Virus record (IMG/VR): IMGVR_UViG_3300025684_000014
Span: 1-64,000 of that record
From: a virus
Length of the DNA: 64,000 nucleotides
Direction: 5' to 3' (one strand)
The notes beneath the pieces are model-generated. The model was not told where the DNA came from and ran no database searches. It saw only the letters and a program-made list of their open reading frames with translations. Below, piece by piece: positions 35,739-56,681 of the stretch. The position numbers and the translations under genes were made by a program. Position 1 is the first letter of the stretch. Each line of letters opens with the position of its first letter.

Positions 35739-35740
35739 AA

Positions 35741-39300: not shown

Positions 39301-42300
39301 CAAGGGTCAGGGTCCAGTCGGCTACATGGCCAACATCTGTACCATTCTGATGGCGACCTTCCAAAAGGTTGACAATGGGAATGGCGGGATGGCTTATGAA
39401 AACGATTGGGTTGAGCGCCTTCAAGCCACACTCAACCTCATGCAACAGACGTCAATCGATCTCCAAAAGAGGATCTACTTGACGATCTGCCTCATGAGGT
39501 GGACCAAGGGTGACCTCCGCAAGGAGAAGCTGGACGGTCGTGGTCTTGTGCCTGGGTACGACTTCCCTGGCCTCGCACACGACTTCAACCCGAACGGCTT
39601 CCACCCTGAGAGCTTCAGCTCAGACGAGTACAAGGCAGCCTTGACTCAGGTTGAGATGCCCCACGTCCCAAGCCACTGGGTCTCAGGTGAGAGTTTCCCT
39701 GTTTGCACTGACAACGACAGTCAGTATGCAATCAGGGCGATTGGCTCTTGGTTGATCTGGGAGGTTTTGAGCCTCATTGTCACAGGTAAGCCTGCTGACT
39801 GGGGCGATGTTGCTGATGACGCGAAGGGCGGCCTTGATCCCTGGAGCGTGAGCAGCGAGTTTATCGGTGAGGATGGTCCTGACTTTGAGGCTTTTGCCAA
39901 GAAGTACGCCCTTACCGACGAGCAACATGCTCAGGTTCTCAACGCCTGGCGCAAGAGCCCTTCCGAGCTGTACAGCTGGAAGACGCAAGGCAAGGACGAG
40001 CCATTCGTCCAGAGAGCGCCTGCGGCTCTTGAGCTCAACCATGAGATCGCTATGCGCCTCAAGGAGAGCTACAAGCCCTCTGGCGAGGTGAAGGTTCACT
40101 TCCGCGAGGTTGAGGCCGAGATCAAGCGTCTCTTCTCCACTGACTTTGCTGGACAGGAGTGGCGTGCGCGCAAGTTTGTAGATACCCTCATCGACGGTTT
40201 CTATCTCGAGGCTGCGCTCGCTAACAACAATAAGGCAACCTCAGAGCGATTCCAAAACTCTGAGGAGCGCTCAGGGGTCGAGGCTCTTGGCTATATCCTT
40301 GAGTCGCTTGAGAACAGCTTTACGGCTTCTACAGGGGCTACAAAGGCTGACATCAAGCTGGCTCGTGCTTTTGCGGCTGCTCTCAACCCCCGTGAGCGTC
40401 GCGACAACAAGGCTCGCGAGATCGGTGTCTTCGTGATGCTCATTTCTTGGTGGACGTTAGAGTACGCAAACCAGGAGTGGATCGACCTTATCCAGCGGAA
40501 CATCACTCCTGAGGAGGGGGACAAGACTCCTAAGTACAAGGTCGCGATGGCTAAGTACGGGGTCGACGAGGCAACCGCCAAGAAGATGGTGAATGCCAAG
40601 CACTCAAAGACGATTGCGCCTGAGCTCCTCAAGTTCATCAAGGGACTCGTCAATGAGCACTTCTCGGTTAACGCTGAGAAGATGGAGGCTAAGGCCACCT
40701 GGCTCGTCGATGATGCTCTGAGCGCAGCCGTCAAGGCGATCGAGAACACAGAGATCGTGATGGCTAAGCGTGACGTCCTCAAGGAGGTCAAAGAGGCGAC
40801 CATCCGCTGGACCGACATGCGTGACAGTTGGGACCAGCGTCGTGTTGCTGTTGAGATCCTCCTCGCGGCTACAGGCTGGTTTGAGGCTTCGTGGTTTGAG
40901 GCTATGAAGGACGAGCTCAAGATGATGGCTTCCCAGACTACCAAGACTGTGGGTCAAATCCGTAAAGAGCTCAAAAACGCTGCTCCCGACGCTGACGTCG
41001 CGGCTCTCAAGACTGAGCTCAAGGTTGCATCAAAGGCTTCTTCTGCAAAGAAGTTGCTTGCGATGCTGGCTGATGATAGCCTCGGCTATGTCACTATCCT
41101 CAACGCGCTCTGTAACCCAAAGCAGAATCCTCTTGCGCGTGAGTTTGTCACCACAATGCTCGACAACAGCGGTCCTATCGTGAACGTTGAGCGTGCGTGG
41201 CAACGTGCGGATGATCTCGGCTGTGACAAGTCTGACGTCCGCGACTGGACCTGGGAGCTCGGTGACTGGGTGACTCACAAGGGCAAAGGCACCGACCCCA
41301 ACACGGGGATGCCACGTCAGAACAAGACAGTACTCTACGCGCACTCACGCGTCGAGTGGTCTTTGACTGACACGGCCACTGCACGCTTTACGCGTATTCT
41401 TCTCGAGGGTGGTGTGAGCATTTACAAGCTCACCAAGGTGCCTGCTCAGAGCTTCAAGACCTGGCGTTACTTTGACGCTTTCGTCTATGAGGCAGAGCGT
41501 ACGCCCGATTACTCCCTGGTCCATGGTGTCGGTCACCTCGTCAGCCTTGCTATCCCTACCCAAAAGCAGGCCGACGAAGAGCGTTACCGCCGCATGGCTC
41601 ACCTCGGTCACCTCGAGTGGGCTTGCCAAGCGTGGACTGATGTCGACCCCACGCTTAGCCAGGCAGACGTGCGCTATCACGTTGAGGGTCTCCGTGAGGA
41701 GATTGATCGCGTCGAGGCTCTCAAGGACAACGCCCTCATGGTGAGCTGGGGTCACCTGCTTAGTCCTATTACTTGGGGCATGCAGATCCATAGCTGGGCT
41801 GGCAAGCTGACCAAGAAGGCCATTAACGGTCGTGCTTGGGCTGCACTTGCACAGCTTGGCAAACGCGACCCCGCCTACCACGACCAGCCCAAGGTCAACA
41901 ACCTCGGGGCTGAGATCGTGACCACCGAGCTCAAGGCCCTTAACTCCAATGGCAACCACATGCCATTCAAGCGCAACTTTGGTCCTCGTAACCAAAGCCA
42001 GGCTCTTCAAAGGGCTAAGCGCATGGCGGGCAAGAACGAGGGTGAGCTTGACGACACCACCGACCTTGTGCCCTTCACCTTCGGTGATGACGAGAACACC
42101 CAGCACACTTACGCTGAGTGGCTCGACTTTATCGAGGGTGTAGCCGCCAACGGCACTGGTCCTGCTAGCGCTATGGTCCTGGCAGGCCTCTGGTACGGTG
42201 CTCATGGTGGGCGTATTGCCGCTCTGGATCCCAACGGCTCAATCTTCTCCAAGGAGATTGCTGAGAAGATCCAAAAGCGTCTCTTGCGCTGCCCCGCCTA

Positions 42301-42427
42301 CGAGGTTCGCCTCCACATTGAGGACCTCCTCAAGGGCGAGTACGTCGCTCCTGTTAGCAAGCCAACTGACAAAGAGAGCGCGGAGGCCTTCTTCGCCGTG
42401 CTTCGCCGTAAGGCTGGCCTCGCTTAA
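36326..42427 (+). CDS. single-subunit double-psi-beta-barrel RNA polymerase (YonO / eukaryotic RdRP-like) with N-terminal hydrophobic helices
   Basis: Motifs in the expected order: G.G..IS, Q.R...KG, KNP, LAGDDDGD (GDDDGD at 39077-39094), VG.MAN, SIDLQK. AAGGAG SD before ATG 36326 (2033 aa). Confidence 0.8.
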   Translation: MSNLNKPRKTAFDRLSAEQQLNWQKISVACENDEGCTAPLARKSKKVVKVPRPKRRQAQRAAKRVERQNRLESTINNLSTTSEGPSALKALFEGLMVSVLVIGMVMGFFALTNDTNTQSIGFDNGGVYAVNSGSSVKNADITSRQGAVNAIDTIDLALDLAIKHAPSQSADLGALGLPPRRRNDFEGDAPLNPMKGDHLQKFWKNYLHERAIFESKQTYARRKRALIARLKRAQKQAAAAHAKKMNAHANILTGQLCYLSKRAQEHSDEDLLIQVNKAFELAQAAKSEEEIIDLVRALEREINGDLWRFDNTIYFQYECDARRSAGTSDQTGKKEKKTLRKAFVFAIKLIAAMIIFKLLQGFFPEDSFGLIFVAVVGGTDVPTDFVGDDLETVAEKLQPHSNLGQALASIERRMGHLPMSTMTLLPGGDGAPKVIFKTNGRDNIGLVPFAQAFGLEALGEDDVLLIEANGVQQDAINEACQAFVQKGYRPVGTRMLIKAFNDDGTRALGADYIEAIDVFLGKMVDVRSYFSLGSAPALKTFTLDDDIYTEREGEDEGRKVLWFTGKAKHIFADLDGVEGGLPISEKAMEAIFGSKNPGQPRLIVKLCDGVAAMVKGNFAPMAVRAFLQADGSWKFLTRAHFENTDEGKAEWRKGYDFVFIEDDTPKGRGKDQLKTEDIKLFDANGKISGWLIAQAKNEQGKSLVSYQVLALVAKSAGLDAIAAHMESLISNSVQKSVDQVERDLDKLDIPGATVSDLEKFKELLSAIAPGSARQTRKNHLGFGAEVFTGYIHMNVLIKKGTIVVGDGFGLNNRAMVKRRGKFGAEDACGGKNPILDHQQTWVGKLIRIGDVQKLRESLDNGKPLSDEEKAFAADLFGADKLDKVIWMTEQIKWVLSFAPALTRGSILMNAEDVADLAGDDDGDQLWFSFGDERILEVFRLIKDQAQGNTLYAIENNKGAQLPSETGARDFKDLLTAEGDELTALCRFIMAPNKGQGPVGYMANICTILMATFQKVDNGNGGMAYENDWVERLQATLNLMQQTSIDLQKRIYLTICLMRWTKGDLRKEKLDGRGLVPGYDFPGLAHDFNPNGFHPESFSSDEYKAALTQVEMPHVPSHWVSGESFPVCTDNDSQYAIRAIGSWLIWEVLSLIVTGKPADWGDVADDAKGGLDPWSVSSEFIGEDGPDFEAFAKKYALTDEQHAQVLNAWRKSPSELYSWKTQGKDEPFVQRAPAALELNHEIAMRLKESYKPSGEVKVHFREVEAEIKRLFSTDFAGQEWRARKFVDTLIDGFYLEAALANNNKATSERFQNSEERSGVEALGYILESLENSFTASTGATKADIKLARAFAAALNPRERRDNKAREIGVFVMLISWWTLEYANQEWIDLIQRNITPEEGDKTPKYKVAMAKYGVDEATAKKMVNAKHSKTIAPELLKFIKGLVNEHFSVNAEKMEAKATWLVDDALSAAVKAIENTEIVMAKRDVLKEVKEATIRWTDMRDSWDQRRVAVEILLAATGWFEASWFEAMKDELKMMASQTTKTVGQIRKELKNAAPDADVAALKTELKVASKASSAKKLLAMLADDSLGYVTILNALCNPKQNPLAREFVTTMLDNSGPIVNVERAWQRADDLGCDKSDVRDWTWELGDWVTHKGKGTDPNTGMPRQNKTVLYAHSRVEWSLTDTATARFTRILLEGGVSIYKLTKVPAQSFKTWRYFDAFVYEAERTPDYSLVHGVGHLVSLAIPTQKQADEERYRRMAHLGHLEWACQAWTDVDPTLSQADVRYHVEGLREEIDRVEALKDNALMVSWGHLLSPITWGMQIHSWAGKLTKKAINGRAWAALAQLGKRDPAYHDQPKVNNLGAEIVTTELKALNSNGNHMPFKRNFGPRNQSQALQRAKRMAGKNEGELDDTTDLVPFTFGDDENTQHTYAEWLDFIEGVAANGTGPASAMVLAGLWYGAHGGRIAALDPNGSIFSKEIAEKIQKRLLRCPAYEVRLHIEDLLKGEYVAPVSKPTDKESAEAFFAVLRRKAGLA

Positions 42428-42502
42428 TTAATAATCCTGGCGTGATGCACTATCCAAATATCTAGCCGTCTTTTTCGGTGAGATAAGTGTGTTGCGTCAG
42501 GG

Positions 42503-42566
42503 CGTGTCAGGTCGGAGCAATTCTGCCGAGATCTCTGATGAGTATGTCTCAGGACAACGAAACACG
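42503..42566 (+). ncRNA. hammerhead ribozyme HH4 (type III)
   Basis: CGTG-TC, cut after 42508; AGGTC...GATCT; CTGATGA; GT-a-TGTC-tcag-GACA-AC; GAAA-CACG. Confidence 0.88.
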
Positions 42567-42604
42567 AATCAGCAGCTCAAAATACATTCATAAGGAGAAT
42601 AAAA

Positions 42605-43096
42605 TTGAGCGATTTCGATAAGCTCCTTGCCGCCCTCATGGCGGGGGGTTCGACTGTCAACGTGACCGTAATCAACGCGGTACACCCTGGCGGTGTAGTC
42701 AACATCAAGAACGGGTGCGTTGATGTTGAAAAGTCTAATGCACCCACCCCTAAGAAGGCTCAGGGGGAGAAGAAGAGCCAGGAGGAGCCACTCCACGATG
42801 ACCACACCTCTGCAGCTGAGGATGCTGTTGGTGGGGGTGACGAGGCTCCAATCGACACCACCCCCGCTGAGCGGAATCGCGGTGGTGGTACTCCAGAGGG
42901 GTCACCGCTCCTCGCTCAGGTGAAGGGCAAGCTCCTCGCCTTGAGTGAGGAATTGACGAACAGGGTTGTCAGCCATATCGATCGCATCAGCTCGCTGAGC
43001 AAGGACGATCTCGAGAAGATCGCTGCGATTGAGGACAGTGACCTCGACAACCTCGACGAGATCCTCGACAACCTCTTTCCTGACCTTGCTTCTTAA
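42605..43096 (+). CDS. hypothetical acidic protein
   Basis: TTG start with an AAGGAG SD; island codon usage. Confidence 0.65.
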   Translation: MSDFDKLLAALMAGGSTVNVTVINAVHPGGVVNIKNGCVDVEKSNAPTPKKAQGEKKSQEEPLHDDHTSAAEDAVGGGDEAPIDTTPAERNRGGGTPEGSPLLAQVKGKLLALSEELTNRVVSHIDRISSLSKDDLEKIAAIEDSDLDNLDEILDNLFPDLAS

Positions 43097-43251
43097 ACAA
43101 GGTTAACTTTAAACTCATCATACACTATCACTCCTAAATCATTATAATATGGTGATAACGACTCCGCCAAACTCCGCCAAGCGGAGCTTGGCACCCCTGT
43201 CGGGGTGAGGAAATGGAGGGCTCTGCCCCCCAAACCCCCCGTGTTGTAGGG

Positions 43252-43714
43252 GTGAGGTGATGTATGGTGAAAGGAAATCAGTATGTCTGACACAACTTTC
43301 GACCCAAAGTTGCTCTGTTTTATTTCCCCCTCGGGGGAGTTTCAAGCACTAGCTCCTCTGATCGCACTTGTGCGTGATGAGCAGCTCGTTTTCCAGGCAA
43401 ACCGGCCTCTTTTGGAGGGGTTCGGGTGCCAAAGCGATGAGCAGACCAAGCAGGGATTCGACTTTCTCAAGTCAATCTCTCTCTCGTCCACTTTTAATTC
43501 ATGGGCGAATGAGGAAGAGGGGTCCTCCGGGATTTCGTCTAAGTCACTGGTCGCGTCGGCAACGACGCCCGGTGCAATCCTGACCCTCGTGGGCCTTCTA
43601 AGGAGTCATCCTGACGCTTCGGCGTCAGGAACCTTGACCGTCAACTACGCCAACCCCGCGCGCCGCGCAGGGGTGGGGCGTCCCCGCTAACTAAACCCCC
43701 ATACATCACCTCAC
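43252..43714. repeat. 16-bp perfect inverted repeat enclosing the 135-aa ORF
   Basis: GTGAGGTGATGTATGG (43252-67) and CCATACATCACCTCAC (43699-714). Confidence 0.85.
43283..43690 (+). CDS. hypothetical protein
   Basis: 135 aa with an AAGGA SD. Confidence 0.6.
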   Translation: MSDTTFDPKLLCFISPSGEFQALAPLIALVRDEQLVFQANRPLLEGFGCQSDEQTKQGFDFLKSISLSSTFNSWANEEEGSSGISSKSLVASATTPGAILTLVGLLRSHPDASASGTLTVNYANPARRAGVGRPR

Positions 43715-43829
43715 ACCGCTTAGCGCGTTCTTTTCCGTAAGGAGACGAGACGCTGAGTGGCACCTCTTTGAGTAGAGGGGCGTAGGATAAGCGTTAAAAG
43801 CGTAATCCTTGGTCGCCTAGACCTAAACT

Positions 43830-43894
43830 CGTCCCCCTAAAGCAGAGTAAAATCTGTGGATGGGGCTGATGTGGCTCTTTCGGGAGCCGAAACG
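43830..43894 (+). ncRNA. variant hammerhead ribozyme HH5 (type III, core CUGAUGU, short stem III)
   Basis: CG-TC, cut after 43833; CCCC...GGGG; CTGATGT; GGCTC-tttcgg-GAGCC; GAAA-CG. Confidence 0.55.
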
Positions 43895-44895
43895 CATCAG
43901 TAGTCACCGTTGATGACTTTAAACTCAACCCCTGTGAGTTAGGGCAAAATACTTGCTACCTTTAGGGGTAGCGCCTCAGTGTGTGTGGGTGAACCACCAT
44001 CGCACATAGAAGGAAGCAGTGTAGGTACTGTGACCTGATGAGGTAAAAACGGTTGGCAACCATGTTGCTGGGCACCTATGCCTCACACTAGCTATCCTAC
44101 AATAGCTAAGAGAAAAATAGGGAGGTTAAATCACCTCGGTCTTTTTTAAAGGTTGAAGAATGGGGTTAGCGATTATAGACATGATCGTGAAGCTCAATGC
44201 GCTATGAAGGGAACATAGTAGCGCGACTCGTTGTGAGTATAAAAACCGAAAGCGGAAATCCTAGGTATCCGTAAGTAGAAGAAGAATGTCTCAGGTTGTT
44301 GAAACTGACCTGGATTACTTTGGATTGATCCCCAAAGAATTAAATAGTCAGCGGCTAGCATAGTATGCCGCGATCTTGGATTGGAACCCCAAGATCAAGG
44401 AGTTGCTTGTAACTTCATCACTACCTTATAAGGGGCAATTCTGGAAGCTTTTCCAGAGCTGATAGATTGTCTTTTATAGGGTAGGCATCACAAGATCGAC
44501 ATTGTTGGGCACGGCAATGTTTAAAGATTAGCAACTATTAGTTGTTATAGTGTCCTGCCGTAGACCGATTACTGTAGAGTAATCATCATAGGCGGGGTAG
44601 GGACGGTATCTGTGGATACTATAACCCTTCAATTTTATGCCCCTTCAGACTGGCTACTTCTTCGTAGTTAGGGGACAGGCAATGCACTTTAGTGTAGCAG
44701 AGGCCAGTCAGCCGGTGATAGGTATGCCGGTGGTGATTTTGAGGTTAATCGTACTCAAACTCAAGAACCAAGACACCTGCGGGGACATAACTCCCTTTGA
44801 TCGTTGACCAGGCGATCAGCTATCTACGGATAGGCACATTGGGCGACTGCAGGCATGTAGTCTAGAAGTGAATGCTAAGTACATCCCTCACACAC
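43895..44895 (+). ncRNA. large, densely structured non-coding RNA (unassigned)
   Basis: No ORF of 60 aa or more on the plus strand; tandem pseudoknots at 43902-43956, 44089-44122 and 44500-44555; 19-bp helix 44421-39/44466-84 with 4 G-U pairs; many further hairpins. Confidence 0.65.
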
Positions 44896-44909
44896 GAAAG
44901 AAGGTCGTC

Positions 44910-45026
44910 ATGACTGGTATCGTGGAGTGTACATCAGGCTTCCGCGTCTTTTGGCGCGGTTGCCTGATCGGTGCGTTTGCCTCTTTTGAGGTGGCGCACC
45001 GTGAGCTCCTCTCTATCTCAGAGTAA
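44910..45026 (+). CDS. small protein, 38 aa (not in the ORF track)
   Basis: AAGAAGGTCGTC-ATGACT start context nearly identical to that of 33350; island codon usage. Confidence 0.55.
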   Translation: MTGIVECTSGFRVFWRGCLIGAFASFEVAHRELLSISE

Positions 45027-45483
45027 AATCTGAGTAGGGAGTGAGCTTCTCCTGAGCATGACGTTAAAAGGCTCAACATGCTTTGGCTGACAGTATCGAC
45101 TGTTGACTCGAGCAAAATAGTGTCTCTTTTAGAGAGGAGATGCTATTTAGTCTTACGGCTCTTTATTTAAGGAGACGTTAAGGCAAGCCCTTTTATCAGG
45201 GTATAGGTTATAGGTGAGACACCGAGCCTAGTAGAATATATATTCTATGAAGTTACGTTTAGTAACAAAAAAGTTCACCATGGCAGGGTAAGTAAAAGCC
45301 CGGTGAGGAAGGTAAGCTTCTTAATATGTCATTTATGGCCACCAAGGTTGGTGCCAGAGGGTTCTAGAGTCCACTACGTGCGAAGTTACAGCTAGTACGC
45401 AGTGAACTCATTCAAAGAGACTGTAATCTCTTTGCTCTGGTAGCCGGTTCAATCCCGGCATGGTTATTTAACGCACCCCGTAG

Positions 45484-45590
45484 CTGGGGTCGAAACACAG
45501 TCTTTCTCGGATGTAGGAGAGAGTTAATAGGAGTCGCGTACCTATTGTTAAAACTGTGTCGGGCTAGCTTAGGCCCCTGAAGAGAACCAG
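45484..45590 (+). ncRNA. hammerhead ribozyme HH6 (type II)
   Basis: CTGG..TC-GAAA-CACAGT...ACTGTG-TC, cut after 45560; GGGCT...GGCCC; CTGAAGA-GA-a-CCAG. Confidence 0.85.
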
Positions 45591-45636
45591 ACATCCCGCC
45601 TTACTTCAGCCTCGTTGCATATAAAGGAGAAATACT

Positions 45637-46005
45637 ATGCAATTCCTTAACATCTCTAACCACCCCGTAGAGGGTTGGTCAGCGTCACAGCGCGAGGCGG
45701 CCCTCGCGCTCGCTCCTGAGGCTGACTTGCTCGATGTTGATTTTCCAACCCTCGACCCTCAGTGGTCGAGGGTAAAGGTCAAGGTGAAAGCGATCGAGTT
45801 TATAGACGATCTCGACCCTCGGCCTGGCGCGAGGGCAATGGTAGCGGGTGAGGAGCCTATAATGTGTTTCTACCTCGTGCGTGAACTCCAGGCACTCGGG
45901 GTGGCCTGCTACAGCGCGACCACTGAGCGCGTGGTCGAGGAGCGCGACGGTGTAAAAACCTCGCGCTTCTCATTTGTGCGCTTTCGTGAGTGGCCTGCTC
46001 TCTAA
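45637..46005 (+). CDS. Csx20-like putative cyclic oligoadenylate ring nuclease (candidate anti-type III CRISPR)
   Basis: N.SNHP...WS..Q..AA, D..FP..DP, V.GE, ATTER, F.FVRFRE pattern of the Csx20 family; strong AAAGGAG SD. Confidence 0.6.
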   Translation: MQFLNISNHPVEGWSASQREAALALAPEADLLDVDFPTLDPQWSRVKVKVKAIEFIDDLDPRPGARAMVAGEEPIMCFYLVRELQALGVACYSATTERVVEERDGVKTSRFSFVRFREWPAL

Positions 46006-46274
46006 GAGTTAGGTCGCTCCGGGCAGAGTAAACTGCCATAAAAAATCCAGGTAATGTTATTCACCTGCTCTTACAATAAGAGAAAAGAAATAACAAACTT
46101 CTTTGAGGAGACGAGACTCGAAGAGACCGCTAAGGTAATGTAGCGGTATATAAATAACGAGGCGTCACCCCCAATAAGTCTAATAGGCAGGGGGAACTAC
46201 ATCCACGCCTACATCGGAACAACATAAGAAGCTTAGGAATTTCTTATGCCGTGAGCATTATCTGGGATGATTAG

Positions 46275-46439
46275 GCAGGGTTAGCTCAGTGATAGAGCGC
46301 TAGCAGCCAACCGTCTGTTGTAAAGAAAGTCAAGCCTAGGAAACTTGATAAGTAATTACAATGGGTTAAGGTAAACATACGAGCTTCCTATCGTATGGGC
46401 AACATGCTAGAAGCGTTGGTTTGATTCCAGCACCCTGCA
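46275..46439 (+). ncRNA. tRNA-like RNA with a ~100-nt structured insertion replacing the anticodon loop
   Basis: Acceptor GCAGGGT/ACCCTGC; D-arm GCTC-AGTGATA-GAGC; anticodon stem CTAGCA/TGCTAG; T-arm GTTGG-TTTGATT-CCAGC. Confidence 0.75.
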
Positions 46440-46549
46440 GCAGCCAAGAATGTATGAAGCCTCCACGTGGCTCTTGGCGGAAATGGCAATCATTGAAGTG
46501 ATTGCGTCAGCTAATATCATACACAAACCATTAAAAAGGAGAAAAAGAC

Positions 46550-46678
46550 ATGTGTATCTGTTGTCATCAGTACACTGTCAGATGGTGGAAAATCCGCCGT
46601 CTGACAGCAAGCACTGTGCTTTACGGAGCACAGTGCGATACTTGTGGCGCTGACTGGGAAGAAACAGTCAAAGAGTAA
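46550..46678 (+). CDS. small Zn-ribbon protein, 42 aa (not in the ORF track)
   Basis: AAGGAG SD; MCICC...QCDTCG. Confidence 0.55.
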   Translation: MCICCHQYTVRWWKIRRLTASTVLYGAQCDTCGADWEETVKE

Positions 46679-46867
46679 TAGCGCCGCAACCCCTAGAGAA
46701 TCCAAAAAGCTTGATTCCAGAGCGTATGAATTGGGTACTCTAGGGGGTAAACACTTTTCTTACACCAAACTCAAATTTGAGAAAACCTCGATTCCAAAGC
46801 GTAAAGAGACATTTTAGTCAAAAGTCGCGGCGGAAGAAAAATTCTCAGGATTAAAAGGATCAAAAAA

Positions 46868-47152
46868 ATGAGAAAGCCTAAGAAAATAATAAGCTTTTGT
46901 GAGTATCACGAAAAGTTCAATTGTGAGGAGTGTGAGGGGCTCCTCTTTGCTACCTTCGAGGAGGTGGCGAAAAGGTACGGTGACTTTGATGTCACCTACC
47001 GTAATGGAGTATTGGAGGGGGTGTGGATTAAGAGCTGGAGCGAGTTTACTTGCTCCAGCTTTAAGAACCACTACAAAGGAGGGTGGGTCATTATAGAGCC
47101 CGGGGCATGGGCTTGGGAGGTTAGGAAAGTGCGCGTGGAGGCGCACGACTGA
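46868..47152 (+). CDS. hypothetical protein
   Basis: 94 aa with an AAGGA SD. Confidence 0.55.
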   Translation: MRKPKKIISFCEYHEKFNCEECEGLLFATFEEVAKRYGDFDVTYRNGVLEGVWIKSWSEFTCSSFKNHYKGGWVIIEPGAWAWEVRKVRVEAHD

Positions 47153-48532: not shown

Positions 48533-49011
48533 TGGCTTCATTCAACGAGATCGTAAATTTTCTTAGCGACAAAAACAACATCCGCGTGGTCAAGACAATC
48601 GTCGGAGCTAACTACAAGCTATCAAATCTCATTGTAGACCGCGCACATACTGGTGCGAAGTTTCTAAAAGAGATGCAAAACGGTGACCGTCAAAATACTG
48701 TTGACATGCTAATCGAGCTTGCTCTTCCTGGTGCAAGGGAAATCATGAATAAGCTGCAAGAAGATGTCTCCAGGATCCATGAAGAGGCTGAGTCAAGAAA
48801 TGCAAAGCTGAACAAGCATGCAATCCGTATTGCAATGGAAGGACGTGTGCATCTTAGTGGACTGTTTACAGAGGTAGAGAGGCAAAATATTAGTAACGCA
48901 TCATATATCGAGCGCTACACAAACTTCTCAGCAAACTTGATTGATGGAAAGACTTATATTGTCTACTTCCATGAGGATAGTCCAAAGACTTACCTCTATC
49001 ACGGTGCATAA
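48532..49011 (+). CDS. hypothetical protein
   Basis: 159 aa with an AAGGA SD. Confidence 0.6.
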   Translation: MASFNEIVNFLSDKNNIRVVKTIVGANYKLSNLIVDRAHTGAKFLKEMQNGDRQNTVDMLIELALPGAREIMNKLQEDVSRIHEEAESRNAKLNKHAIRIAMEGRVHLSGLFTEVERQNISNASYIERYTNFSANLIDGKTYIVYFHEDSPKTYLYHGA

Positions 49012-49014
49012 TAC

Positions 49015-49047
49015 TTGACATAAAAAAAATCGTCGTTATCTTATAAT
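49015..49047 (+). promoter_or_regulatory. sigma70-like promoter for the tRNA cluster
   Basis: TTGACA-N16-TATCTT with an overlapping TATAAT, just upstream of tRNA-Arg. Confidence 0.5.
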
Positions 49048-49072
49048 CAAAGAGGCTATATAGCCTCATAAC

Positions 49073-49146
<74 letters not shown>

Positions 49147-49231
49147 CTCCCCGCACCCTATTTTTCAAAGAAAGTTAAATAGGCAAAAGTCAAAAAAGCT
49201 CCTCAAAACTTTTTAACTCGTGCGGGATTTT

Positions 49232-49304
49232 GGGCAGTTAGCCAAGAGGTTAAGGCACCGGTCTCATAAACCGGCGATCCTGGGTTCAACCCCCAGACTG
49301 CCCA
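49232..49304 (+). tRNA. tRNA with CAT anticodon (Met or lysidine Ile2)
   Basis: Cloverleaf; CCGGT-CTCATAA-ACCGG. Confidence 0.9.
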
Positions 49305-49310
49305 CTTCAT

Positions 49311-49392
49311 GCCATCATGGTGGAATAGGTAGACACAGGGGACTTAAAATCCCCCGACTTATGTCGTGCGGGTTCGATCCCCGCTGATGGTA
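49311..49392 (+). tRNA. tRNA-Leu(TAA)
   Basis: Cloverleaf with variable arm; GGGGA-CTTAAAA-TCCCC. Confidence 0.95.
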
Positions 49393-49419
49393 TTTCTTAA
49401 ACTGTAAAAAAGAGGTAAA

Positions 49420-49680
49420 ATGCTTAACAAATATAGCAACATGAATGTGTATATTGATGAGAAAACCTTCAATAAATACTTCGAAAACCCAGTAATAATG
49501 CAAGAAGTAACAACCTGGTCAAGTTTATCATGTTGTTACCTAATTGTGCAAAACGAAACAAGTGCGCAAAACCTCAAGTTCAACAAAAAAGTAATCAGTA
49601 CCGACTTAAGGGTTAGAGCTGTTATTGCTAAAAACCTTAAAAATATGACTTACTACACCCCTGTAATCTTAACAAAGTAA
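49420..49680 (+). CDS. hypothetical protein
   Basis: AGAGGT SD. Confidence 0.55.
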   Translation: MLNKYSNMNVYIDEKTFNKYFENPVIMQEVTTWSSLSCCYLIVQNETSAQNLKFNKKVISTDLRVRAVIAKNLKNMTYYTPVILTK

Positions 49681-49693
49681 AAAAGAGGTAAAA

Positions 49694-50020
49694 ATGGACT
49701 TCAAAGATTTCTTGCAACATTATATTGATAACAAATTCGAGAGTTCCTTTGAGGAGCAAGTCTTTTCAATAGAAGAGAAGTATGAGTGTGACCCATTCTC
49801 ATTCTTCCCAAACTGCCCAGAAGATGCAAAGACAAGCGTAGAAAGGTTGATCAAGTTAAGATCAACTGATACACAATTCTTTGGTATCGGTGGATGGGAA
49901 ACCATCAAGGGCATTGACAACTCAACGCCCAAGCACCATTACAAAGGTTTAGTAGAGTCACAAATCCGAAGAGAGGATCGTGCTTATATTTCCTATATGG
50001 TCCATGAGTTAAGACGATGA
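49694..50020 (+). CDS. hypothetical protein
   Basis: AGAGGT SD. Confidence 0.6.
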   Translation: MDFKDFLQHYIDNKFESSFEEQVFSIEEKYECDPFSFFPNCPEDAKTSVERLIKLRSTDTQFFGIGGWETIKGIDNSTPKHHYKGLVESQIRREDRAYISYMVHELRR

Positions 50021-50199
50021 CAACATTACAATTATGTTTTGCTGTAATCATGATAGGCGCACTATTTGGTCTAACAAACTACGACGAAAACATCAAAGAT
50101 AAAAATCCAATCAGAATGGCAAAAGCTATAGGCGTAGCTGTTTTATTTGGCTCAGTATTCTTATCTTGGTTTTTCATCATTCATGCAATGGAGTTGTAA
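50017..50199 (+). CDS. small membrane protein
   Basis: Two hydrophobic helices; coupled start. Confidence 0.5.
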   Translation: MTTLQLCFAVIMIGALFGLTNYDENIKDKNPIRMAKAIGVAVLFGSVFLSWFFIIHAMEL

Positions 50200-50384
50200 T
50201 GTTCACAATCTTGCCAAAAAAGAAAAAGAATGGCGGCTCTAAAACTAGCTAGTATCTTCTTTTACTTTTCATTTGTGTGGGGCTTAGAAACAATTCTAAA
50301 CCTCATAGAAAAAACACCAGCAAATAAAGTAATCGCTCACTCAGCAATTATATACTTGTACGTAGAAAACATTAGGAGTTTGTT

Positions 50385-50672
50385 ATGGTAAGGCAAATTT
50401 GTATGGTATATTCTTCAAATGTCACTAGGTACGACTGGGTTACAAACGAGTACCTAATGAGTAGAATTATGACAAACGAAGAGATAGAAATTCATTCAGA
50501 GATCGAGATAGATGTAACAGACAAGTACCAAATGAAATACTTTGGTCCTGCAATCACTATCAACGATGATGGCGAGCAACCAGACGCCTACATCTTCTTC
50601 AGTGATGACCCTAACCTTGACAATTTCATCTCTCTGCTAGATCTAACAGACCATGATTATTATCTGTTCTAA
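50385..50672 (+). CDS. hypothetical acidic protein
   Basis: AGGAG SD. Confidence 0.6.
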   Translation: MVRQICMVYSSNVTRYDWVTNEYLMSRIMTNEEIEIHSEIEIDVTDKYQMKYFGPAITINDDGEQPDAYIFFSDDPNLDNFISLLDLTDHDYYLF

Positions 50673-50936
50673 TATATGTTAATGATCTTTAGCTGCATAA
50701 CAATTATATTCTCAGCTATTGGTTACGCTATCGAATACAATTCATTCAGTATTATTCGGTGGTCAGCTATGGCAGTGGTGTTGTTACTTTGCAACACTTA
50801 TGAAAAATCAAATAGCGAATGCGTTGTTTATAAATAAAATCTTAAGCAATAGAGGTTTTCTTCTCCTTTGCTCTATTGCTTATGAGTGTCGTCAACTGCT
50901 CTTGTTCCGTAGCAGTATAATATACGGAACACCTAT

Positions 50937-51009
50937 GCACCTGTAGCTCAGTGGTAAGAGCAGGCGTCTTATAAGCGTCAGGTCACGAGTTCAATCCTCG
51001 TCAGGTGCA
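50937..51009 (+). tRNA. tRNA-Ile(TAT)
   Basis: Cloverleaf; GGCGT-CTTATAA-GCGTC; acceptor GCACCTG/CAGGTGC. Confidence 0.92.
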
Positions 51010-51041
51010 CTCCCATTAACTAGTAAAAGAAAGAGTAGAAA

Positions 51042-51377
51042 ATGGATATCTTAACCGTTATCAACAAATACAGAATCGAAGAGTGGATAACACATGCTGG
51101 TATGCACCGATGCAAAATAAACGTAAATGATAAGTTTTACGTTTCTATTATTGCAGGAGAGGGTGCTTACTCAAATCCAAGAAAAAAACTACATGATTTC
51201 AGTCACTATTCTGAATATGAAGTGGCATTTTTTGACATGGAAAACAATTGGCTCAGAATTGTAGACGAAGAAGAATTCTTTTACGAGCGCTTCGAGTTTA
51301 CAGACGTAATGGGCAATCTCGCACCATTCGAAATCGATGAATTAATCACAAAACTTGATAAAAACTGGAAGGGTTAA
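51042..51377 (+). CDS. hypothetical protein (paralog of 52153-52527)
   Basis: Shared INKY...KF.VSI..G....S.P pattern. Confidence 0.6.
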   Translation: MDILTVINKYRIEEWITHAGMHRCKINVNDKFYVSIIAGEGAYSNPRKKLHDFSHYSEYEVAFFDMENNWLRIVDEEEFFYERFEFTDVMGNLAPFEIDELITKLDKNWKG

Positions 51378-51378
51378 G

Positions 51379-51657
51379 ATGAAAAGTTACTACTTAAAAG
51401 CTACAAAGTTAATGGGCAAGCCTTCTTTTAGTGATGTTCTTGATGAAGTAAAAGAGCTAATTCAAGATCGATCATTAGAAGAAGTTTCTGATGTAATGCA
51501 TTCTCTTTGCAGGTACTTAAATGTGCCTGATTCAATTACATGGTATGTTGCTAATAAAACAGCAATGAAACATGCTATGAGAATGGAAGAAAGAGGATGC
51601 CCGCGTTCAGAGCGCAATTGCTTAGCATCAGCAGAAAACTGTTGTTGTCGTAAGTGA
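51379..51657 (+). CDS. hypothetical protein, possibly a MazG-like NTP pyrophosphatase
   Basis: DEVKEL...EEVSDV acidic pattern and a Cys-rich tail. Confidence 0.35.
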   Translation: MKSYYLKATKLMGKPSFSDVLDEVKELIQDRSLEEVSDVMHSLCRYLNVPDSITWYVANKTAMKHAMRMEERGCPRSERNCLASAENCCCRK

Positions 51658-51664
51658 TTAGCCT

Positions 51665-51700
51665 GCCCCCGACAGGGGGCTAATGCCCCGACAGGGGCAT
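51665..51700. repeat. tandem GC-rich palindromes with a GACA loop
   Basis: GCCCCC-GACA-GGGGGC and ATGCCCC-GACA-GGGGCAT. Confidence 0.75.
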
Positions 51701-51788
51701 TACTACAATATTATCCAATATTTCACCAACCTTAACCCAAAAAAGGTGGGCTACGTAAGGAGACCTACCCTTGGCTCAAGGAGCGTTT

Positions 51789-51974
51789 ATGTCTTTTAAC
51801 ACATGGTTATCAACTTTTAACGCAACAAAATCAATGCAAGCAAAGATTGTACTACTGTCATACCTAGACAAAGGTAAAGTTACGTCAGTACACTTTGTAA
51901 ATAAATCAAACCCATATCACGATAATATAAATAGTATTTTAAAGAGAGTATATGCTTTACGAGTACAACACTAA
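51789..51974 (+). CDS. hypothetical protein
   Basis: AAGGAG SD. Confidence 0.5.
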   Translation: MSFNTWLSTFNATKSMQAKIVLLSYLDKGKVTSVHFVNKSNPYHDNINSILKRVYALRVQH

Positions 51975-52143
51975 AGAGCAAATAGATATTCTACAAAGAA
52001 TGTCTAATTTGTCTACAATACTGTCTCAATTTGAATTAACAGGAAAACAAGATTCAAAAGATTATGAAGAATACTTAAAGATGCTTGATAATCTAGAAGA
52101 AATACTTGTCGAATTAAGAGAAAATCAAAACAAGAATACGTAA
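51952..52143 (+). CDS. hypothetical protein
   Basis: 63-aa helical ORF. Confidence 0.5.
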   Translation: MLYEYNTKEQIDILQRMSNLSTILSQFELTGKQDSKDYEEYLKMLDNLEEILVELRENQNKNT

Positions 52144-52152
52144 GGAGACGAA

Positions 52153-52527
52153 ATGGCTCAAACAAACGTAATTGATATGATTAATAAATACGCGCTTTCC
52201 AATATGCTCTGTAATAATCACGAAGGGCATATTATTCGCTTAGATATCGAAAATAAATTTGAAGTATCTATTGCTTTAGGTTGCAATAATCAATCACTGC
52301 CAACCACACCAATGTCTAGAATTGACCTTTATACTCATGCACAAATTGTATTTGCAGATTATAACAACAATCCACTAAATGTATCTTTTGAAGATATGTA
52401 CAAAGTGGATTCAATTGAAGTATCTGATTTTCTTAAAACTTACGATAAAGTTTGTTTTGATGAATTAGATTATATGATTATCGCAATTCTAAATTACATG
52501 GAAGAAAACGATGTCTGTATTCTTTGA
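52153..52527 (+). CDS. hypothetical protein (paralog of 51042-51377)
   Basis: AAGGAG SD; shared motif pattern. Confidence 0.6.
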   Translation: MAQTNVIDMINKYALSNMLCNNHEGHIIRLDIENKFEVSIALGCNNQSLPTTPMSRIDLYTHAQIVFADYNNNPLNVSFEDMYKVDSIEVSDFLKTYDKVCFDELDYMIIAILNYMEENDVCIL

Positions 52528-52753
52528 TTTAGATGCCTGTAATAACTTTCAACAAGTTTATGAGTACTTTTTAAAAAATAAACTTTTTGATGAGGCTTAC
52601 CTACCTATGCTTCGCTCTGTTTTTGATAAAGAAGGTGGTGTAAATATTTTAATAAATGAAAATGAACTCATTAGATTTACAGGTCTGATGCAAGAAAAAG
52701 ATATTGATTTTTGGGTTCAAACAGGTTGGACCGTTTACACATTTACTGAATAA
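52511..52753 (+). CDS. hypothetical protein
   Basis: 80 aa, coupled start. Confidence 0.5.
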   Translation: MSVFFDLDACNNFQQVYEYFLKNKLFDEAYLPMLRSVFDKEGGVNILINENELIRFTGLMQEKDIDFWVQTGWTVYTFTE

Positions 52754-52766
52754 GATTTTATATATA

Positions 52767-53042
52767 ATGAATAACAGTTTTACTAATATTGCCAATGAGA
52801 TTGGCAAGCTATTAGATGACAAAAACACTCAATATGGTTCTGCTTTCGAAACAGTTCCTCAAATACTTTCTATTTTGTATCCTAATGGTATCGCTCCAAA
52901 GGATTATCAAAACCTATTAACACTTACACGTATCTTAGATAAGGTACAAAGGATTGCTACAAATAATGGTAATGACCCAGAAGATCCGTGGCGCGATATC
53001 GCAGGTTACGCAATTTTGCAACTTTCAAAACAAGATAATTGA
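52767..53042 (+). CDS. DUF1599-like / nucleotide-modification-associated small protein
   Basis: KNTQYGSAF ... RILDKVQRI ... EDPWRDIAGYAIL. Confidence 0.6.
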   Translation: MNNSFTNIANEIGKLLDDKNTQYGSAFETVPQILSILYPNGIAPKDYQNLLTLTRILDKVQRIATNNGNDPEDPWRDIAGYAILQLSKQDN

Positions 53043-53403
53043 AATCTCTCAAAATAAACTAAATGCATTTAAAATTTTTATTTCTACTTATGAGCCAAGT
53101 TCTTATTTTGAGCAAAATAAAGCTAATTTTTTATTTGAACCAATGCAATTTATTGGAAATTATCAAGAAAAGCTTTTTGAAATAAAAGATACTTATTATC
53201 TTGCTCTTTTAGAAGAAATTTCTACTAAGCAATTTATGATTTATGGATTGCTTGATAACGATGCTTTTATTTTTGATCAACAAAACGCTTTAATTGAATT
53301 TGATACTTTATCTACTGAAGTTATCGATATATTTCAGTCTGAACTTTTTAAGATTTGTCAAAAGAATAGTTACTTACTTAAGAGTGATTTAGAAGGACAC
53401 TAG
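52954..53403 (+). CDS. hypothetical protein (start uncertain)
   Basis: ORF fills the gap between its neighbours. Confidence 0.45.
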   Translation: MLQIMVMTQKIRGAISQVTQFCNFQNKIIEISQNKLNAFKIFISTYEPSSYFEQNKANFLFEPMQFIGNYQEKLFEIKDTYYLALLEEISTKQFMIYGLLDNDAFIFDQQNALIEFDTLSTEVIDIFQSELFKICQKNSYLLKSDLEGH

Positions 53404-53404
53404 T

Positions 53405-55890: not shown

Positions 55891-55895
55891 TAACT

Positions 55896-56678: not shown

Positions 56679-56681
56679 GAA

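What the first reader, a model, noticed from the sequence alone, without database searches (positions are those of the whole stretch)
46275..46439. tRNA scaffold carrying a ~100-nt folded domain instead of an anticodon loop
Seen: a perfect 7-bp acceptor stem, canonical D-arm, 6-bp anticodon stem and T-arm (loop TTTGATT). Positions 46306-46404 form their own structure (CTGTTGTAA/TTACAATGG, TCAAG/CTTGA, CATACGA/TCGTATG). The insert is too short for a group I or II intron, and the RNA lacks tmRNA hallmarks (it has a D-stem and no G3-U70 alanine identity). Inference: a natural tRNA-scaffolded RNA, matured by RNase P/Z, acting as a decoy or aptamer, for example against anticodon nucleases or synthetases. 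Alternatively it is a tRNA with a protein-spliced intron.
Basis: partly seen in the sequence, partly recalled or inferred. Interest (0 to 1): 0.8.

Follow-up and report, generated by a model that had tools for sequence, protein, structure and literature searches.

The report
Phage tRNA look-alike with ribozyme tail
An uncultured marine phage encodes an RNA shaped like a tRNA, with a folded 100-base module where the codon-reading loop should be and a self-cutting ribozyme at its tail; it is probably a tRNA mimic, not a working tRNA, and its job is unknown.

Summary
46275-46439 (+) is a complete tRNA frame with about 100 nt in place of the anticodon loop. In 8 related phage records it is the only insert-bearing strict frame; 30 shuffles gave one hit in total.

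All five helices and the J4/2 cytosine are present, but it scores below Rfam's cut-off (24.1 vs 44 bits). It should cut after A73-G-C-A.

A related complete phage, G002 (64% terminase identity), carries the same arrangement at the syntenic place.

Both inserts are Y-shaped, and their hairpins share a 6-bp loop-loop match with one compensatory change. In the own RNA the elbow pair 19-56 is A-U; it is G-C in G002.

None of 16 possible 7-nt loops has U33. No splicing enzyme gene was found.

Best reading: an unspliced, non-decoding tRNA mimic, probably freed by RNase P at its 5' end and by its own ribozyme at its 3' end.

Limits: there is no RNA evidence, only two lineages are known, and a model built from the own sequence does not find G002's copy.

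This scan noted similar tRNA-shaped phage RNAs before, on other DNA.

The parts
46275..46281 (+). acceptor stem, 5' strand (GCAGGGT); presumed RNase P cut just before G46275
   Evidence: 7 of 7 pairs with 46432-46438. Positions -2, -1, 2 and 3 vary among near-identical alleles. The RNase P cut is inferred, not shown.
46284..46298 (+). D arm: stem GCTC/GAGC, loop AGTGATA with G18 (46291) and A19 (46292)
   Evidence: A19 matches U56 (46422); G002 has GG with C56, and the four canonical tRNAs of this phage listed have C56.
46300..46305 (+). anticodon-stem 5' strand CTAGC plus A
   Evidence: pairs with 46405-46410
46306..46404 (+). 99-nt Y-shaped insert: helix GCC/GGC continuing the stem, a long bent hairpin (46310-46372), a short hairpin (46376-46397), and an unpaired AACA (46401-46404)
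   Evidence: MFE and centroid folds are identical. The insert is 100% identical in L044 and L045. One U.G to C-G change at 46316 in a 90-95% DNA variant.
46337..46342 (+). loop of the long hairpin: TAGGAA, partner of 46385-46390
   Evidence: the only 6-nt Watson-Crick match in the RNA that is not part of a helix; 126 of 20000 loop shuffles do as well
46385..46390 (+). loop of the short hairpin: TTCCTA, partner of 46337-46342
   Evidence: G002 has TAGGAC with GTCCTA, i.e. A-U changed to C-G.
46405..46410 (+). anticodon-stem 3' strand T plus GCTAG
46415..46431 (+). T arm GTTGG-TTTGATT-CCAGC (U54 U55 U56 G57 A58)
46432..46442 (+). acceptor 3' strand ACCCTGC, discriminator A46439, then GCA (46440-46442) where a tRNA has CCA
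   Evidence: C46438 is T in L044, L045 and the X7 contig. The 8-mer CAGCAGCC across the junction is identical in G002.
46443..46523 (+). HDV-like self-cleaving ribozyme: P1 46443-49/46472-78, P2 46451-57/46517-23, P3 46459-61/46469-71, P1.1 46463-64/46479-80, P4 46486-92/46499-505, candidate catalytic C46511; predicted cut between A46442 and G46443
   Evidence: RF02682 24.1 bits, E 0.024 in 501 nt x 4227 families and E 0.0014 for the whole record; this is below the gathering score of 44. Helices read: 7/7, 7/7, 3/3, 2/2, 7/7 pairs. The only allele change (46505 C>T) turns G-C into G.U. Cleavage itself is not tested.
46536..46552 (+). AAGGAG ribosome-binding site and ATG of the next small gene (46550-46678), on the ribozyme's 3' product
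   Evidence: In L044 and L045 the sequence departs from 46543 on, and a different gene follows the same cassette.

Best explanation
A non-decoding tRNA mimic. The phage transcribes 46275-46439 together with its neighbours on the + strand. Host RNase P is expected to cut before G46275 (inferred from the complete acceptor/T-arm/elbow frame). The HDV-like ribozyme cuts itself off after A46442 (predicted from its fold). This releases an RNA of about 168 nt that ends in A73-G-C-A, presumably with a 2',3'-cyclic phosphate, and it gives the downstream mRNA a structured 5'-OH leader. The RNA keeps the L-shaped body of a tRNA. Where the anticodon loop should be it carries a rigid Y-shaped module whose two hairpin loops pair with each other. 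With no U33 and no 7-nt loop it cannot read codons, and as cut it cannot be aminoacylated. What the freed RNA does is not known. My working guess is that it binds or distracts a host factor that recognises tRNA bodies or acceptor ends. A plainer alternative is that it mainly serves as a processing signal and stabiliser in a transcript punctuated by ribozymes.
For: (1) The frame is beyond chance: 1 insert-bearing strict frame in 856 kb x 2 strands, against 1 in 30 shuffles in total. It is ARAGORN -i's only extra call in the record. With the insert removed in silico, ARAGORN calls a tRNA in 8 of 8 variants. A model of the element (R2) hits ordinary tRNAs of related phages across the deleted insert; the four alignments I saw show this (best 40.7 bits, a tRNA-Val). 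(2) An HDV-like ribozyme lies directly 3'. In the Rfam scan at E<=2 no ribozyme family is listed in 48900-61600, which holds all 7 canonical tRNAs, and the ribozyme model R1 finds nothing beside them. (3) G002 (64% terminase identity) has, at the syntenic place, a 204-nt tRNA-shaped RNA with an insert of about 130 nt (MFE -63.2, z -4.66, 0 of 200 shuffles as good). It is followed by the same A-GCA-GCC junction, the same 16-nt spacing to the ribozyme's L3, and an HDV-like ribozyme (25.9 bits). (4) Loop-loop match: TAGGAA/TTCCTA here, TAGGAC/GTCCTA in G002. In each RNA it is the only non-helix 6-mer complement. Loop shuffles reach it in 126 and 80 of 20000 trials. The two matches differ by one compensatory change. 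(5) The elbow pair covaries: A19-U56 here, G19-C56 in G002. (6) It does not decode: 0 of 8 (own) and 0 of 8 (G002) possible 7-nt loops have U33. In the same register the 5' sides read A-G-C-C-A-A-C and U-G-C-A-A-A-C, and G33-C34 are paired in both folds. (7) Among near-identical alleles, changes inside helices mostly keep pairing: A3-U70 to G.U, G1-C72 to G.U, U.G to C-G at 46316, G-C to G.U in P4.
Against: There is no RNA evidence: the metatranscriptome contigs that could be laid do not cover the element, so expression, both cuts and the absence of splicing are all inferred. The ribozyme scores below Rfam's gathering score (24.1 vs 44). Only two lineages carry the element. A covariance model built from the own sequence does not find G002's copy (best 3.8 bits with filters off), so homology rests on synteny, the junction, the architecture and the loop motif. 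G002's frame is less canonical: an A.C at pair 7-66, a 7-bp D stem, and ARAGORN of 8 insert-deleted variants. In G002 the ribozyme's P1 can be drawn in two ways, so the cut may fall after A73 or after AGCA. A third relative, G012 (61% terminase identity), has no T arm and no HDV-like hit in the syntenic stretch. Allele L044 has a G.G mismatch at pair 2-71. RNase Z plus CCA addition could still turn the product into a chargeable RNA.
Confidence: 0.6

Rival explanations
1. An intron-bearing tRNA. Host or unknown phage proteins remove the roughly 100 nt and join the halves, giving a decoding tRNA, as proposed for the 'enigmatic' introns of Lak megaphage tRNAs.
For: The frame is complete and tRNA-like. 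The insert sits in the anticodon loop, where tRNA introns sit. Part of the would-be anticodon region pairs with the 3' end of the insert, as in eukaryotic pre-tRNAs (recalled knowledge). Devoto et al. 2019 report conserved introns in phage tRNAs (PMC6784885, passages). RtcB-type ligases are common in bacteria (control row).
Against: 0 of 8 possible 7-nt loops has U33, and likewise 0 of 8 in G002. The fold shows no bulge-helix-bulge: a 4-nt bulge, a 3-bp helix, then a multiloop. No tRNA-splicing endonuclease, RtcB, RNA ligase or CCA-adding enzyme gene was found in the record (79% complete). The conserved loop-loop pairing is more structure than a discarded intron needs. ARAGORN's intron model is strained.
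Confidence: 0.15
2. Mainly a processing and stability cassette. The tRNA shape is there only so that RNase P cuts the long transcript, and the ribozyme only to free and protect the next mRNA. The excised RNA has no role of its own.
For: The element lies at the end of a ribozyme-rich, ORF-poor island: a hammerhead-like site at 42501-42568 and a second HDV-like site at 44639-44708. Related phages have minimal HDV-like ribozymes behind ordinary genes. The cassette (leader, tRNA-like, ribozyme, RBS) is joined to a different downstream gene in L044 and L045. No sigma-70-like promoter lies upstream of the element within 45500-47000. RNase P recognises the acceptor/T-arm and the elbow (established knowledge), which would explain why the elbow is conserved.
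Against: RNase P does not need a D arm, an anticodon stem or a 100-nt module. Yet these are kept, and the loop-loop pair covaries across diverged phages. The substitutions that cluster at the acceptor end among otherwise identical alleles point to an interaction at that end.
Confidence: 0.2
3. A dead tRNA gene (perhaps once tRNA-Val) hit by a random insertion, with no function.
For: The frame's best tRNA match is a tRNA-Val, and ACA precedes the 3' stem strand, as in the 3' half of a Val anticodon loop. G012 lacks the element.
Against: All stems are intact. The 19-56 pair is A-U here and G-C in G002, which looks compensated. The insert is identical in alleles whose upstream flank (45885-46175) differs at 19 listed positions plus indels. 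The same architecture, junction and loop motif occur in a phage with 64% terminase identity. A ribozyme is kept exactly at its 3' end.
Confidence: 0.04

Closest known systems
tRNA-associated theta ribozymes (minimal HDV-like ribozymes next to gut-phage tRNAs; Kienbeck et al. 2024, PMC10879173; section 7 read, passages)
   Same: An HDV-type ribozyme whose cleavage site lies within +/-5 nt of the 3' end of a phage tRNA-shaped gene, on the same strand, so that the ribozyme makes the 3' end.
   Different: This ribozyme has a 7-bp P4, whereas theta ribozymes lack P4. It follows a tRNA-shaped RNA with no anticodon loop, not one of the phage's 7 real tRNAs. The cut is after A73-GCA, whereas 77% of theta cases are within +/-1 nt of the tRNA end. 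The habitat is marine/estuary, not gut. No CCA-adding enzyme or RNA ligase gene was found. The paper's sequence lists are in supplements that I could not see.
Phage T5 RNA1 and RNA2, annotated 'tRNA-like stable RNA with unknown functions' (NC_005859, 30501-30644 and 32959-33083)
   Same: Phage RNAs of 144 and 125 nt that fold as tRNA frames (acceptor, D arm, T arm) with an enlarged, branched arm in the anticodon position. They lie among phage tRNA genes, and their function is unknown.
   Different: No detectable sequence or profile relation: R2 searched the T5 stretch and hit only its tRNA-fMet. The T5 record annotates no ribozyme behind them. Their inserts are shorter, and I did not look for a loop-loop pair in them.
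'Enigmatic' introns in Lak megaphage tRNA genes (Devoto et al. 2019, PMC6784885; passages read)
   Same: Conserved inserts inside phage tRNA genes that fit no self-splicing class; in both cases the same insert is nearly identical across samples.
   Different: The Lak cases were called tRNAs with a named anticodon by tRNAscan in eukaryote mode, and intron-less alleles exist. Here no reconstruction gives a normal loop and no insert-less allele was found. The Lak sequences are in a supplement that I could not see, so no direct comparison was made.
Engineered tRNA scaffolds for expressing RNAs in E. coli (the method is recalled knowledge; PMC3753655 seen only as a listing)
   Same: A foreign folded RNA placed in the anticodon position of a tRNA body, so that the chimera is processed and stabilised like a tRNA.
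   Different: That is a laboratory design. This is a natural gene with its own 3' ribozyme and a non-CCA tail.

Membership tests
Canonical decoding tRNA (Rfam RF00005) | Cloverleaf with acceptor, D, anticodon and T stems and a D-loop/T-loop elbow | tested here: met
   All four stems are fully paired. G18/U55 and A19-U56 are possible. ARAGORN calls a tRNA in 8 of 8 insert-deleted variants.
Canonical decoding tRNA (Rfam RF00005) | 7-nt anticodon loop with U33 and a purine at 37; match to the tRNA model | tested here: not met
   101 nt lie between the two 5-bp stem strands. 0 of 8 possible 7-nt loops has U33. No RF00005 hit at E<=10, and ARAGORN by default does not call it.
tRNA with a self-splicing group I intron | Intron of roughly 200 nt or more with the P1-P9 core; match to the Rfam group I model | tested here: not met
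   The insert is 99-101 nt. No Rfam family matches at E<=10. The size limit is recalled knowledge.
Protein-spliced (archaeal/eukaryal type) tRNA intron | Bulge-helix-bulge, or an intron at 37/38 that leaves a normal loop; a splicing endonuclease and ligase available | tested here: not met
   The fold has a 4-nt bulge, a 3-bp helix, then a multiloop. No normal loop is possible. PF01974, PF01139 and PF09414 are absent from the record. Host enzymes are unknown, so splicing is not excluded.
tmRNA | tRNA-Ala-like acceptor with G3.U70, no D stem, a tag reading frame and pseudoknots | tested here: not met
   ARAGORN finds no tmRNA. A D stem is present. The pair is A3-U70 here; allele L045 does have G3.U70.
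HDV-like self-cleaving ribozyme (the 3' neighbour, 46443-46523) | Nested double pseudoknot P1, P1.1, P2, P3, P4 with a cytosine in J4/2 | tested here: met
   7/7, 2/2, 7/7, 3/3 and 7/7 pairs, and GCTAA in J4/2, read.
HDV-like self-cleaving ribozyme (the 3' neighbour, 46443-46523) | Score at or above the Rfam gathering score; demonstrated self-cleavage | tested here: not met
   RF02682 gives 24.1 bits against 44; E is 0.0014 for the record. Cleavage cannot be tested with these tools.
Theta ribozymes (Kienbeck 2024) | Minimal form without P4; cleavage site within +/-5 nt of a tRNA 3' end | tested here: not met
   A 7-bp P4 is present. The distance criterion is met (cut 3 nt after the discriminator), but the neighbour is not a decoding tRNA. 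Definition taken.
T5-type tRNA-like stable RNAs | Relation in sequence or profile to T5 RNA1/RNA2 | tested here: not met
   R2 searched L174 (T5 30300-33300) and matched only tRNA-fMet. Only the overall shape is alike.
Lak-phage tRNA 'enigmatic introns' | Relation to the published Lak intron sequences | not testable with these tools

The most novel reading that the evidence does not exclude
The freed RNA is an anti-defence decoy. It would be a tRNA body with a non-CCA 'GCA' tail ending in a cyclic phosphate, plus a rigid loop-loop module. It is made next to a Csx20-like (candidate ring-nuclease) gene, and it would bind or jam a host factor that senses or cuts tRNAs (an acceptor-end or anticodon nuclease, or a sensor of cyclic-phosphate tRNA ends). 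The substitutions that pile up at the acceptor end among otherwise identical alleles would then be traces of an arms race. Nothing here tests binding. The reading rests on context, the predicted end and the allele pattern.
Probability: 0.12. Interest if true: 0.85.

Novelty: new variant of a known kind. Interest (0 to 1): 0.6.

Why it matters
tRNA-shaped stable RNAs of phages have been annotated for a long time (T5 RNA1 and RNA2) without a known function. 'Enigmatic' inserts in phage tRNA genes, and HDV-like ribozymes beside phage tRNAs, are recent and still unexplained.

This locus joins the three themes in one compact cassette. It adds testable detail:
- a predicted exact 3' end (GCA in place of CCA, cut by a ribozyme);
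- a conserved loop-loop contact that can be broken and restored by mutation;
- natural alleles that differ almost only at the acceptor end, one of them with G3.U70.

The locus also extends the pairing of HDV-like ribozymes with tRNA-shaped genes from gut phages to marine and estuarine phages, and from real tRNAs to mimics.

If the mimic acts on a host factor, it would be a new type of RNA-based phage counter-measure. If it is only a processing cassette, it is a natural counterpart of the tRNA and ribozyme insulators used in synthetic biology.

Tried and rejected
Looking for relatives:
- blastn of 46100-46600 against the phage collection gave no match.
- Exact and patterned DNA scans of viral contigs found only G002. 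The four other loci were chance matches in what looked like coding or unrelated sequence, with no ribozyme fold.
- The C-terminal half of the giant protein found no locus.
- The 122-aa upstream protein alone gave one unrelated locus, L002, with no RNA hit.
- An alignment of that protein's family gave 11 viral and 80 metagenome loci. blastn of all 123 loci held at that point found the element only in L044 and L045, apart from the window's own copies L001 and L030. L047 is GC-rich coding DNA of another kind.
- BLAST of the element against 16 related virus records gave only 15-21-nt chance matches.
- tblastn of the terminase against cultured phages gave at most 28.6% identity, so there is no cultured relative.

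Expression:
- The RNA-run contigs X15, X19 and X20 lie on 46707-47000 and 45938-46191 only.
- Nothing covers the element, which says nothing either way.

Ribozyme search:
- My own descriptor for HDV-like folds was too loose: 26 rows in real sequence against 16-21 in shuffles. It also missed two known sites, so I dropped it.
- Model R1 did not find the second HDV-like type (44639 and G002's), so the two types differ.
- MAFFT alignments of the three ribozymes, and of the own element with G002's, were structurally wrong and were not used for pair counts.

Ideas rejected:
- The shared 11-mer AAACTTGATAA of the two inserts sits in different structural places, so I draw nothing from it.
- A Val-type identity (ACA before the 3' stem strand, A73) is not shared by G002 and stays a weak lead.
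- A Cys-like loop reading in G002 disappeared once the stem register was fixed.
- Neither a tmRNA nor a Y-RNA-like permuted tRNA fits: ARAGORN and Rfam give no hits, and the ends lie on the acceptor side.
Full report
WHERE IT LIES. The window is the first 64 kb of a 123,667-b linear IMG/VR virus record that is 79% complete. The standard code fits. The phage has a tail sheath, a major head protein, a portal and a large terminase, and no cultured relative (terminase at most 28.6% identical). Its DNA recurs in marine, estuary, river and sediment metagenomes. The element lies on the + strand. It sits at the end of a GC-richer stretch (0.48-0.56 against 0.26-0.39 elsewhere) that holds a 2062-aa ORF and about 2.5 kb with few ORFs.

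THE OBSERVATION. The opposite strand folds worse.

I scanned 8 related phage records (856 kb, both strands) for strict tRNA frames. This gave 12 ordinary tRNAs and one frame with 101 nt between the anticodon-stem strands, which is this element. Thirty shuffles gave one such frame in total.

ARAGORN with introns allowed makes one extra call in the whole record, with exactly these ends, although its intron model is strained. When the insert is removed in silico, ARAGORN calls a tRNA in 8 of 8 variants. A covariance model of the element (R2) matches ordinary tRNAs of related phages across the deleted insert, the best being a tRNA-Val at 40.7 bits. Rfam 15 has nothing for the element, even at E<=10 on 173 nt.

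Three bases after the discriminator, at 46443-46523, lies an HDV-like ribozyme. RF02682 scores it at 24.1 bits, with E 0.024 in a 501-nt search of all families and E 0.0014 for the whole record with that family alone. This is below Rfam's gathering score of 44, so I checked the fold by hand:
- P1: GCCAAGA/TCTTGGC, 7 of 7 pairs
- P2: TGTATGA/TCATACA, 7 of 7
- P3: GCC/GGC, 3 of 3
- P1.1: CC/GG, 2 of 2
- P4: GCAATCA/TGATTGC, 7 of 7
- GCTAA in J4/2, with the candidate catalytic C at 46511

HDV-type ribozymes cut at their own 5' end (established knowledge). The predicted cut is therefore between A46442 and G46443. The tRNA-shaped RNA would then end in A73-G-C-A, the length of a mature tRNA tail but with G in place of C74, and presumably with a 2',3'-cyclic phosphate.

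No ribozyme family appears at E<=2 in 48900-61600, where all 7 real tRNA genes lie. Model R1 of this ribozyme also finds nothing beside them. The ribozyme therefore belongs to the mimic and not to tRNAs in general.

The same region holds a second HDV-like site (44639-44708, 29.4 bits) and a hammerhead-like site (42501-42568, 24.8 bits), both below cut-off. I checked only these two sites.

RELATIVES.

(a) Near-identical alleles. Two metagenome contigs (L044, L045) carry the cassette at 98.5-98.8% identity over 343 nt. Six columns vary. Five of them lie at the acceptor end: positions -2, -1, 2, 3 and 72. The sixth turns a G-C pair of ribozyme P4 into G.U. L045 has G1.U72 and G3.U70; L044 has a G.G mismatch at pair 2-71. 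The 99-nt insert is identical in all three.

A more distant DNA contig (run X7, 90-95% alike) differs at 19 listed positions plus several insertions in 45885-46175, upstream of the element. Within the cassette it shows only 46316 T>C (U.G becomes C-G in an insert helix), 46438 C>T (G1-C72 becomes G.U), and a 1-nt loss in the ribozyme's J1/2. No change is listed downstream of 46449 either, so this pattern looks mosaic and is not proof of special constraint on the element.

From 46543 on, L044 and L045 continue into a different gene. The cassette is thus a movable unit that ends at the ribosome-binding site.

(b) G002, a complete 161,781-b phage with 64% terminase identity. An HDV-like hit (25.9 bits) is preceded by a 204-nt RNA with a 6-bp acceptor stem plus an A.C, a D arm, an 8-bp 'anticodon' stem, a Y-shaped insert of about 130 nt, and a canonical T arm (GAAGG-TTCGAAC-CCTTC). 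The fold is -63.2 kcal/mol, z -4.66.

The junction C-A-GCA-GCC, and the 16 nt from it to the ribozyme's L3, are the same as here. The place is syntenic: conserved genes on both sides and a giant ORF (2175 aa against 2062 aa) are collinear.

Against this, model R2 does not find G002's copy (3.8 bits with filters off). ARAGORN calls none of its 8 insert-deleted variants. Its ribozyme P1 can be drawn to cut either after AGCA or after A73.

(c) G012 (61% terminase identity). It has the giant ORF, but the stretch behind it is tightly packed with genes and has no T arm and no HDV-like hit. The element is therefore not universal in the lineage.

(d) Other cases in relatives. Minimal P4-less HDV-like ribozymes sit behind ordinary genes in G008 and perhaps G004. 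G002 has a further 110-nt tRNA-shaped RNA with an insert of about 45 nt in its tRNA cluster (R2 21.6 bits, E 0.022; z -2.96).

INSIDE THE INSERT. I listed all 6-nt Watson-Crick complements within each RNA. Besides the helices there is exactly one extra pair in each. Here it is TAGGAA (46337-46342, loop of the long hairpin) with TTCCTA (46385-46390, loop of the short hairpin). In G002 it is TAGGAC with GTCCTA.

Shuffling the loop letters reaches 6 pairs in 126 and 80 of 20000 trials. The two versions differ by an A-U to C-G exchange. This argues that the two inserts are related and that a loop-loop contact is selected, either within one molecule or between two.

The tRNA elbow also covaries. 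Here the D loop has G18-A19 and the T loop U54-U55-U56. G002 has GG and UUC, and the four canonical tRNAs of this phage listed have C56.

DECODING OR NOT. With the 5-bp anticodon stem fixed, all 8 ways of building a 7-nt loop from the two ends of the insert lack U33. The same is true of all 8 ways in G002.

In the same register the 5' sides read A-G-C-C-A-A-C (own) and U-G-C-A-A-A-C (G002), and G33-C34 are paired with the 3' end of the insert in both folds. There is no bulge-helix-bulge.

The record has no match to the tRNA-splicing endonuclease, RtcB, the RNA-ligase family or the CCA-adding enzyme family. The record is incomplete and the host's enzymes are unknown. I therefore rate a spliced, decoding tRNA at about 0.15.

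HOW IT MOST LIKELY WORKS.
- Shown by sequence analysis: the frame, the ribozyme fold, the conserved arrangement in two lineages, the loop-loop match, and the lack of a usable anticodon loop.
- Inferred: co-transcription with the upstream Csx20-like gene (there is no promoter-like site upstream within 45500-47000; the only one found lies inside the ribozyme); the RNase P cut at the 5' end; the ribozyme cut at the 3' end; and a stable product of about 168 nt.
- Unknown: the role of that product.

I give 0.6 to 'an unspliced, non-decoding tRNA mimic released by RNase P and its own ribozyme'. Within that, a trans-acting role (binding a tRNA-recognising host factor) and a mainly cis role (a processing and stability cassette) remain open.

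COMPARISON WITH WHAT IS KNOWN.
- Theta ribozymes (PMC10879173; section 7 read) are the nearest in arrangement. They lack P4, follow real tRNAs (often suppressors), are said to be confined to gut phages, and mostly cut within +/-1 nt of the tRNA end.
- T5 RNA1 and RNA2 are annotated tRNA-like stable RNAs of unknown function. They fold as tRNA frames with an enlarged anticodon arm, but show no profile relation to this element.
- Lak megaphage tRNA 'introns' (PMC6784885; passages read) are the nearest in concept.
- My paper searches listed no paper whose title or abstract start describes a tRNA-shaped RNA with a folded module in the anticodon position followed by an HDV-like ribozyme. These are word searches of open-access texts only.
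- Earlier notes of this scan report similar tRNA-shaped phage RNAs with inserts, some with a 3' ribozyme, on other genomes. I did not see those sequences, and they share no short words with this one.

VERDICT. This is a real, selected RNA element: a new variant of the poorly understood phage tRNA mimics, joined to a tRNA-associated HDV-like ribozyme. Its maturation route needs the ribozyme. Its functional guess is untested. Interest 0.6.

Noticed in passing
window 46273-46277, 46438 (and L044, L045, run X7 contig): Among alleles that are otherwise 98.5-99% identical over 343 nt, 5 of the 6 variable columns lie at the acceptor end (positions -2, -1, 2, 3, 72). One allele gains G3.U70, the alanine identity pair; another has a G.G mismatch at 2-71. 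This is either a local hot spot or diversifying selection at the end that synthetases, RNase P and some nucleases read.
   Followed up: partly
window 45637-46005: The gene just upstream encodes a 122-aa Csx20-like protein (PADLOC PDLC01397, E 2.9e-23; NCBIfam CAS_Csx20 below cut-off). The family is widespread (345 metagenome loci). Csx20 appears in a preprint on ring nucleases of type III CRISPR loci (listing only). In a phage it is a candidate anti-CRISPR.
   Followed up: partly
window 42501-42568 and 44639-44708: A hammerhead type III-like site (24.8 bits) and a second HDV-like ribozyme (29.4 bits) of a different subtype. The second resembles the one behind G002's tRNA mimic more than the one at 46443 does.
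   Followed up: partly
window 43691-45636 and 46006-46274: About 2.2 kb with no ORF over 75 aa and strong predicted structure. The leader 46006-46274 folds with z -4.21. 45276-45467 folds (z -3.70) into a multibranch RNA closed by a 5-bp stem next to a canonical T-arm hairpin, GCCGG-TTCAATC-CCGGC.
   Followed up: partly
window 46543 onward, compared with L044 and L045: Right after the shared ribosome-binding site the alleles carry different downstream genes. Here it is a 42-aa ORF at 46550-46678. The tRNA-like/ribozyme/RBS unit therefore behaves as a movable 5' cassette.
   Followed up: no
L125 (G002) 8950-9110 and 8823-8845, minus strand: Just upstream of G002's tRNA mimic lie two more T-arm-type hairpins with TTCGACT loops. 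One sits in a 161-nt segment closed by a 7-bp stem (z -5.84). Together they form a tandem run of T-arm-containing structured RNAs.
   Followed up: partly
L132 (G002) 13848-13957, minus strand: A 110-nt tRNA-shaped RNA with an insert of about 45 nt in the anticodon arm, lying between tRNA-Met and tRNA-Arg. ARAGORN does not call it, and no ribozyme follows it.
   Followed up: partly
L163 (G008) 16847-16906 minus strand; G008 12159-12549: A minimal, P4-less HDV-like ribozyme (theta-like; R1 25.6 bits, E 0.01) behind an ORF and a hairpin, not behind a tRNA. The same marine-type phage fragment also encodes a tmRNA between two tRNAs.
   Followed up: no
window 34000-46000: GC content is 0.48-0.56 here against 0.26-0.39 in the rest of the window. 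The stretch holds a 2062-aa ORF with no Pfam or PHROG match. G002 and G012 have giant ORFs (2175 and 1858 aa) at the same place, but tblastn at 1e-3 did not link them to this one.
   Followed up: partly
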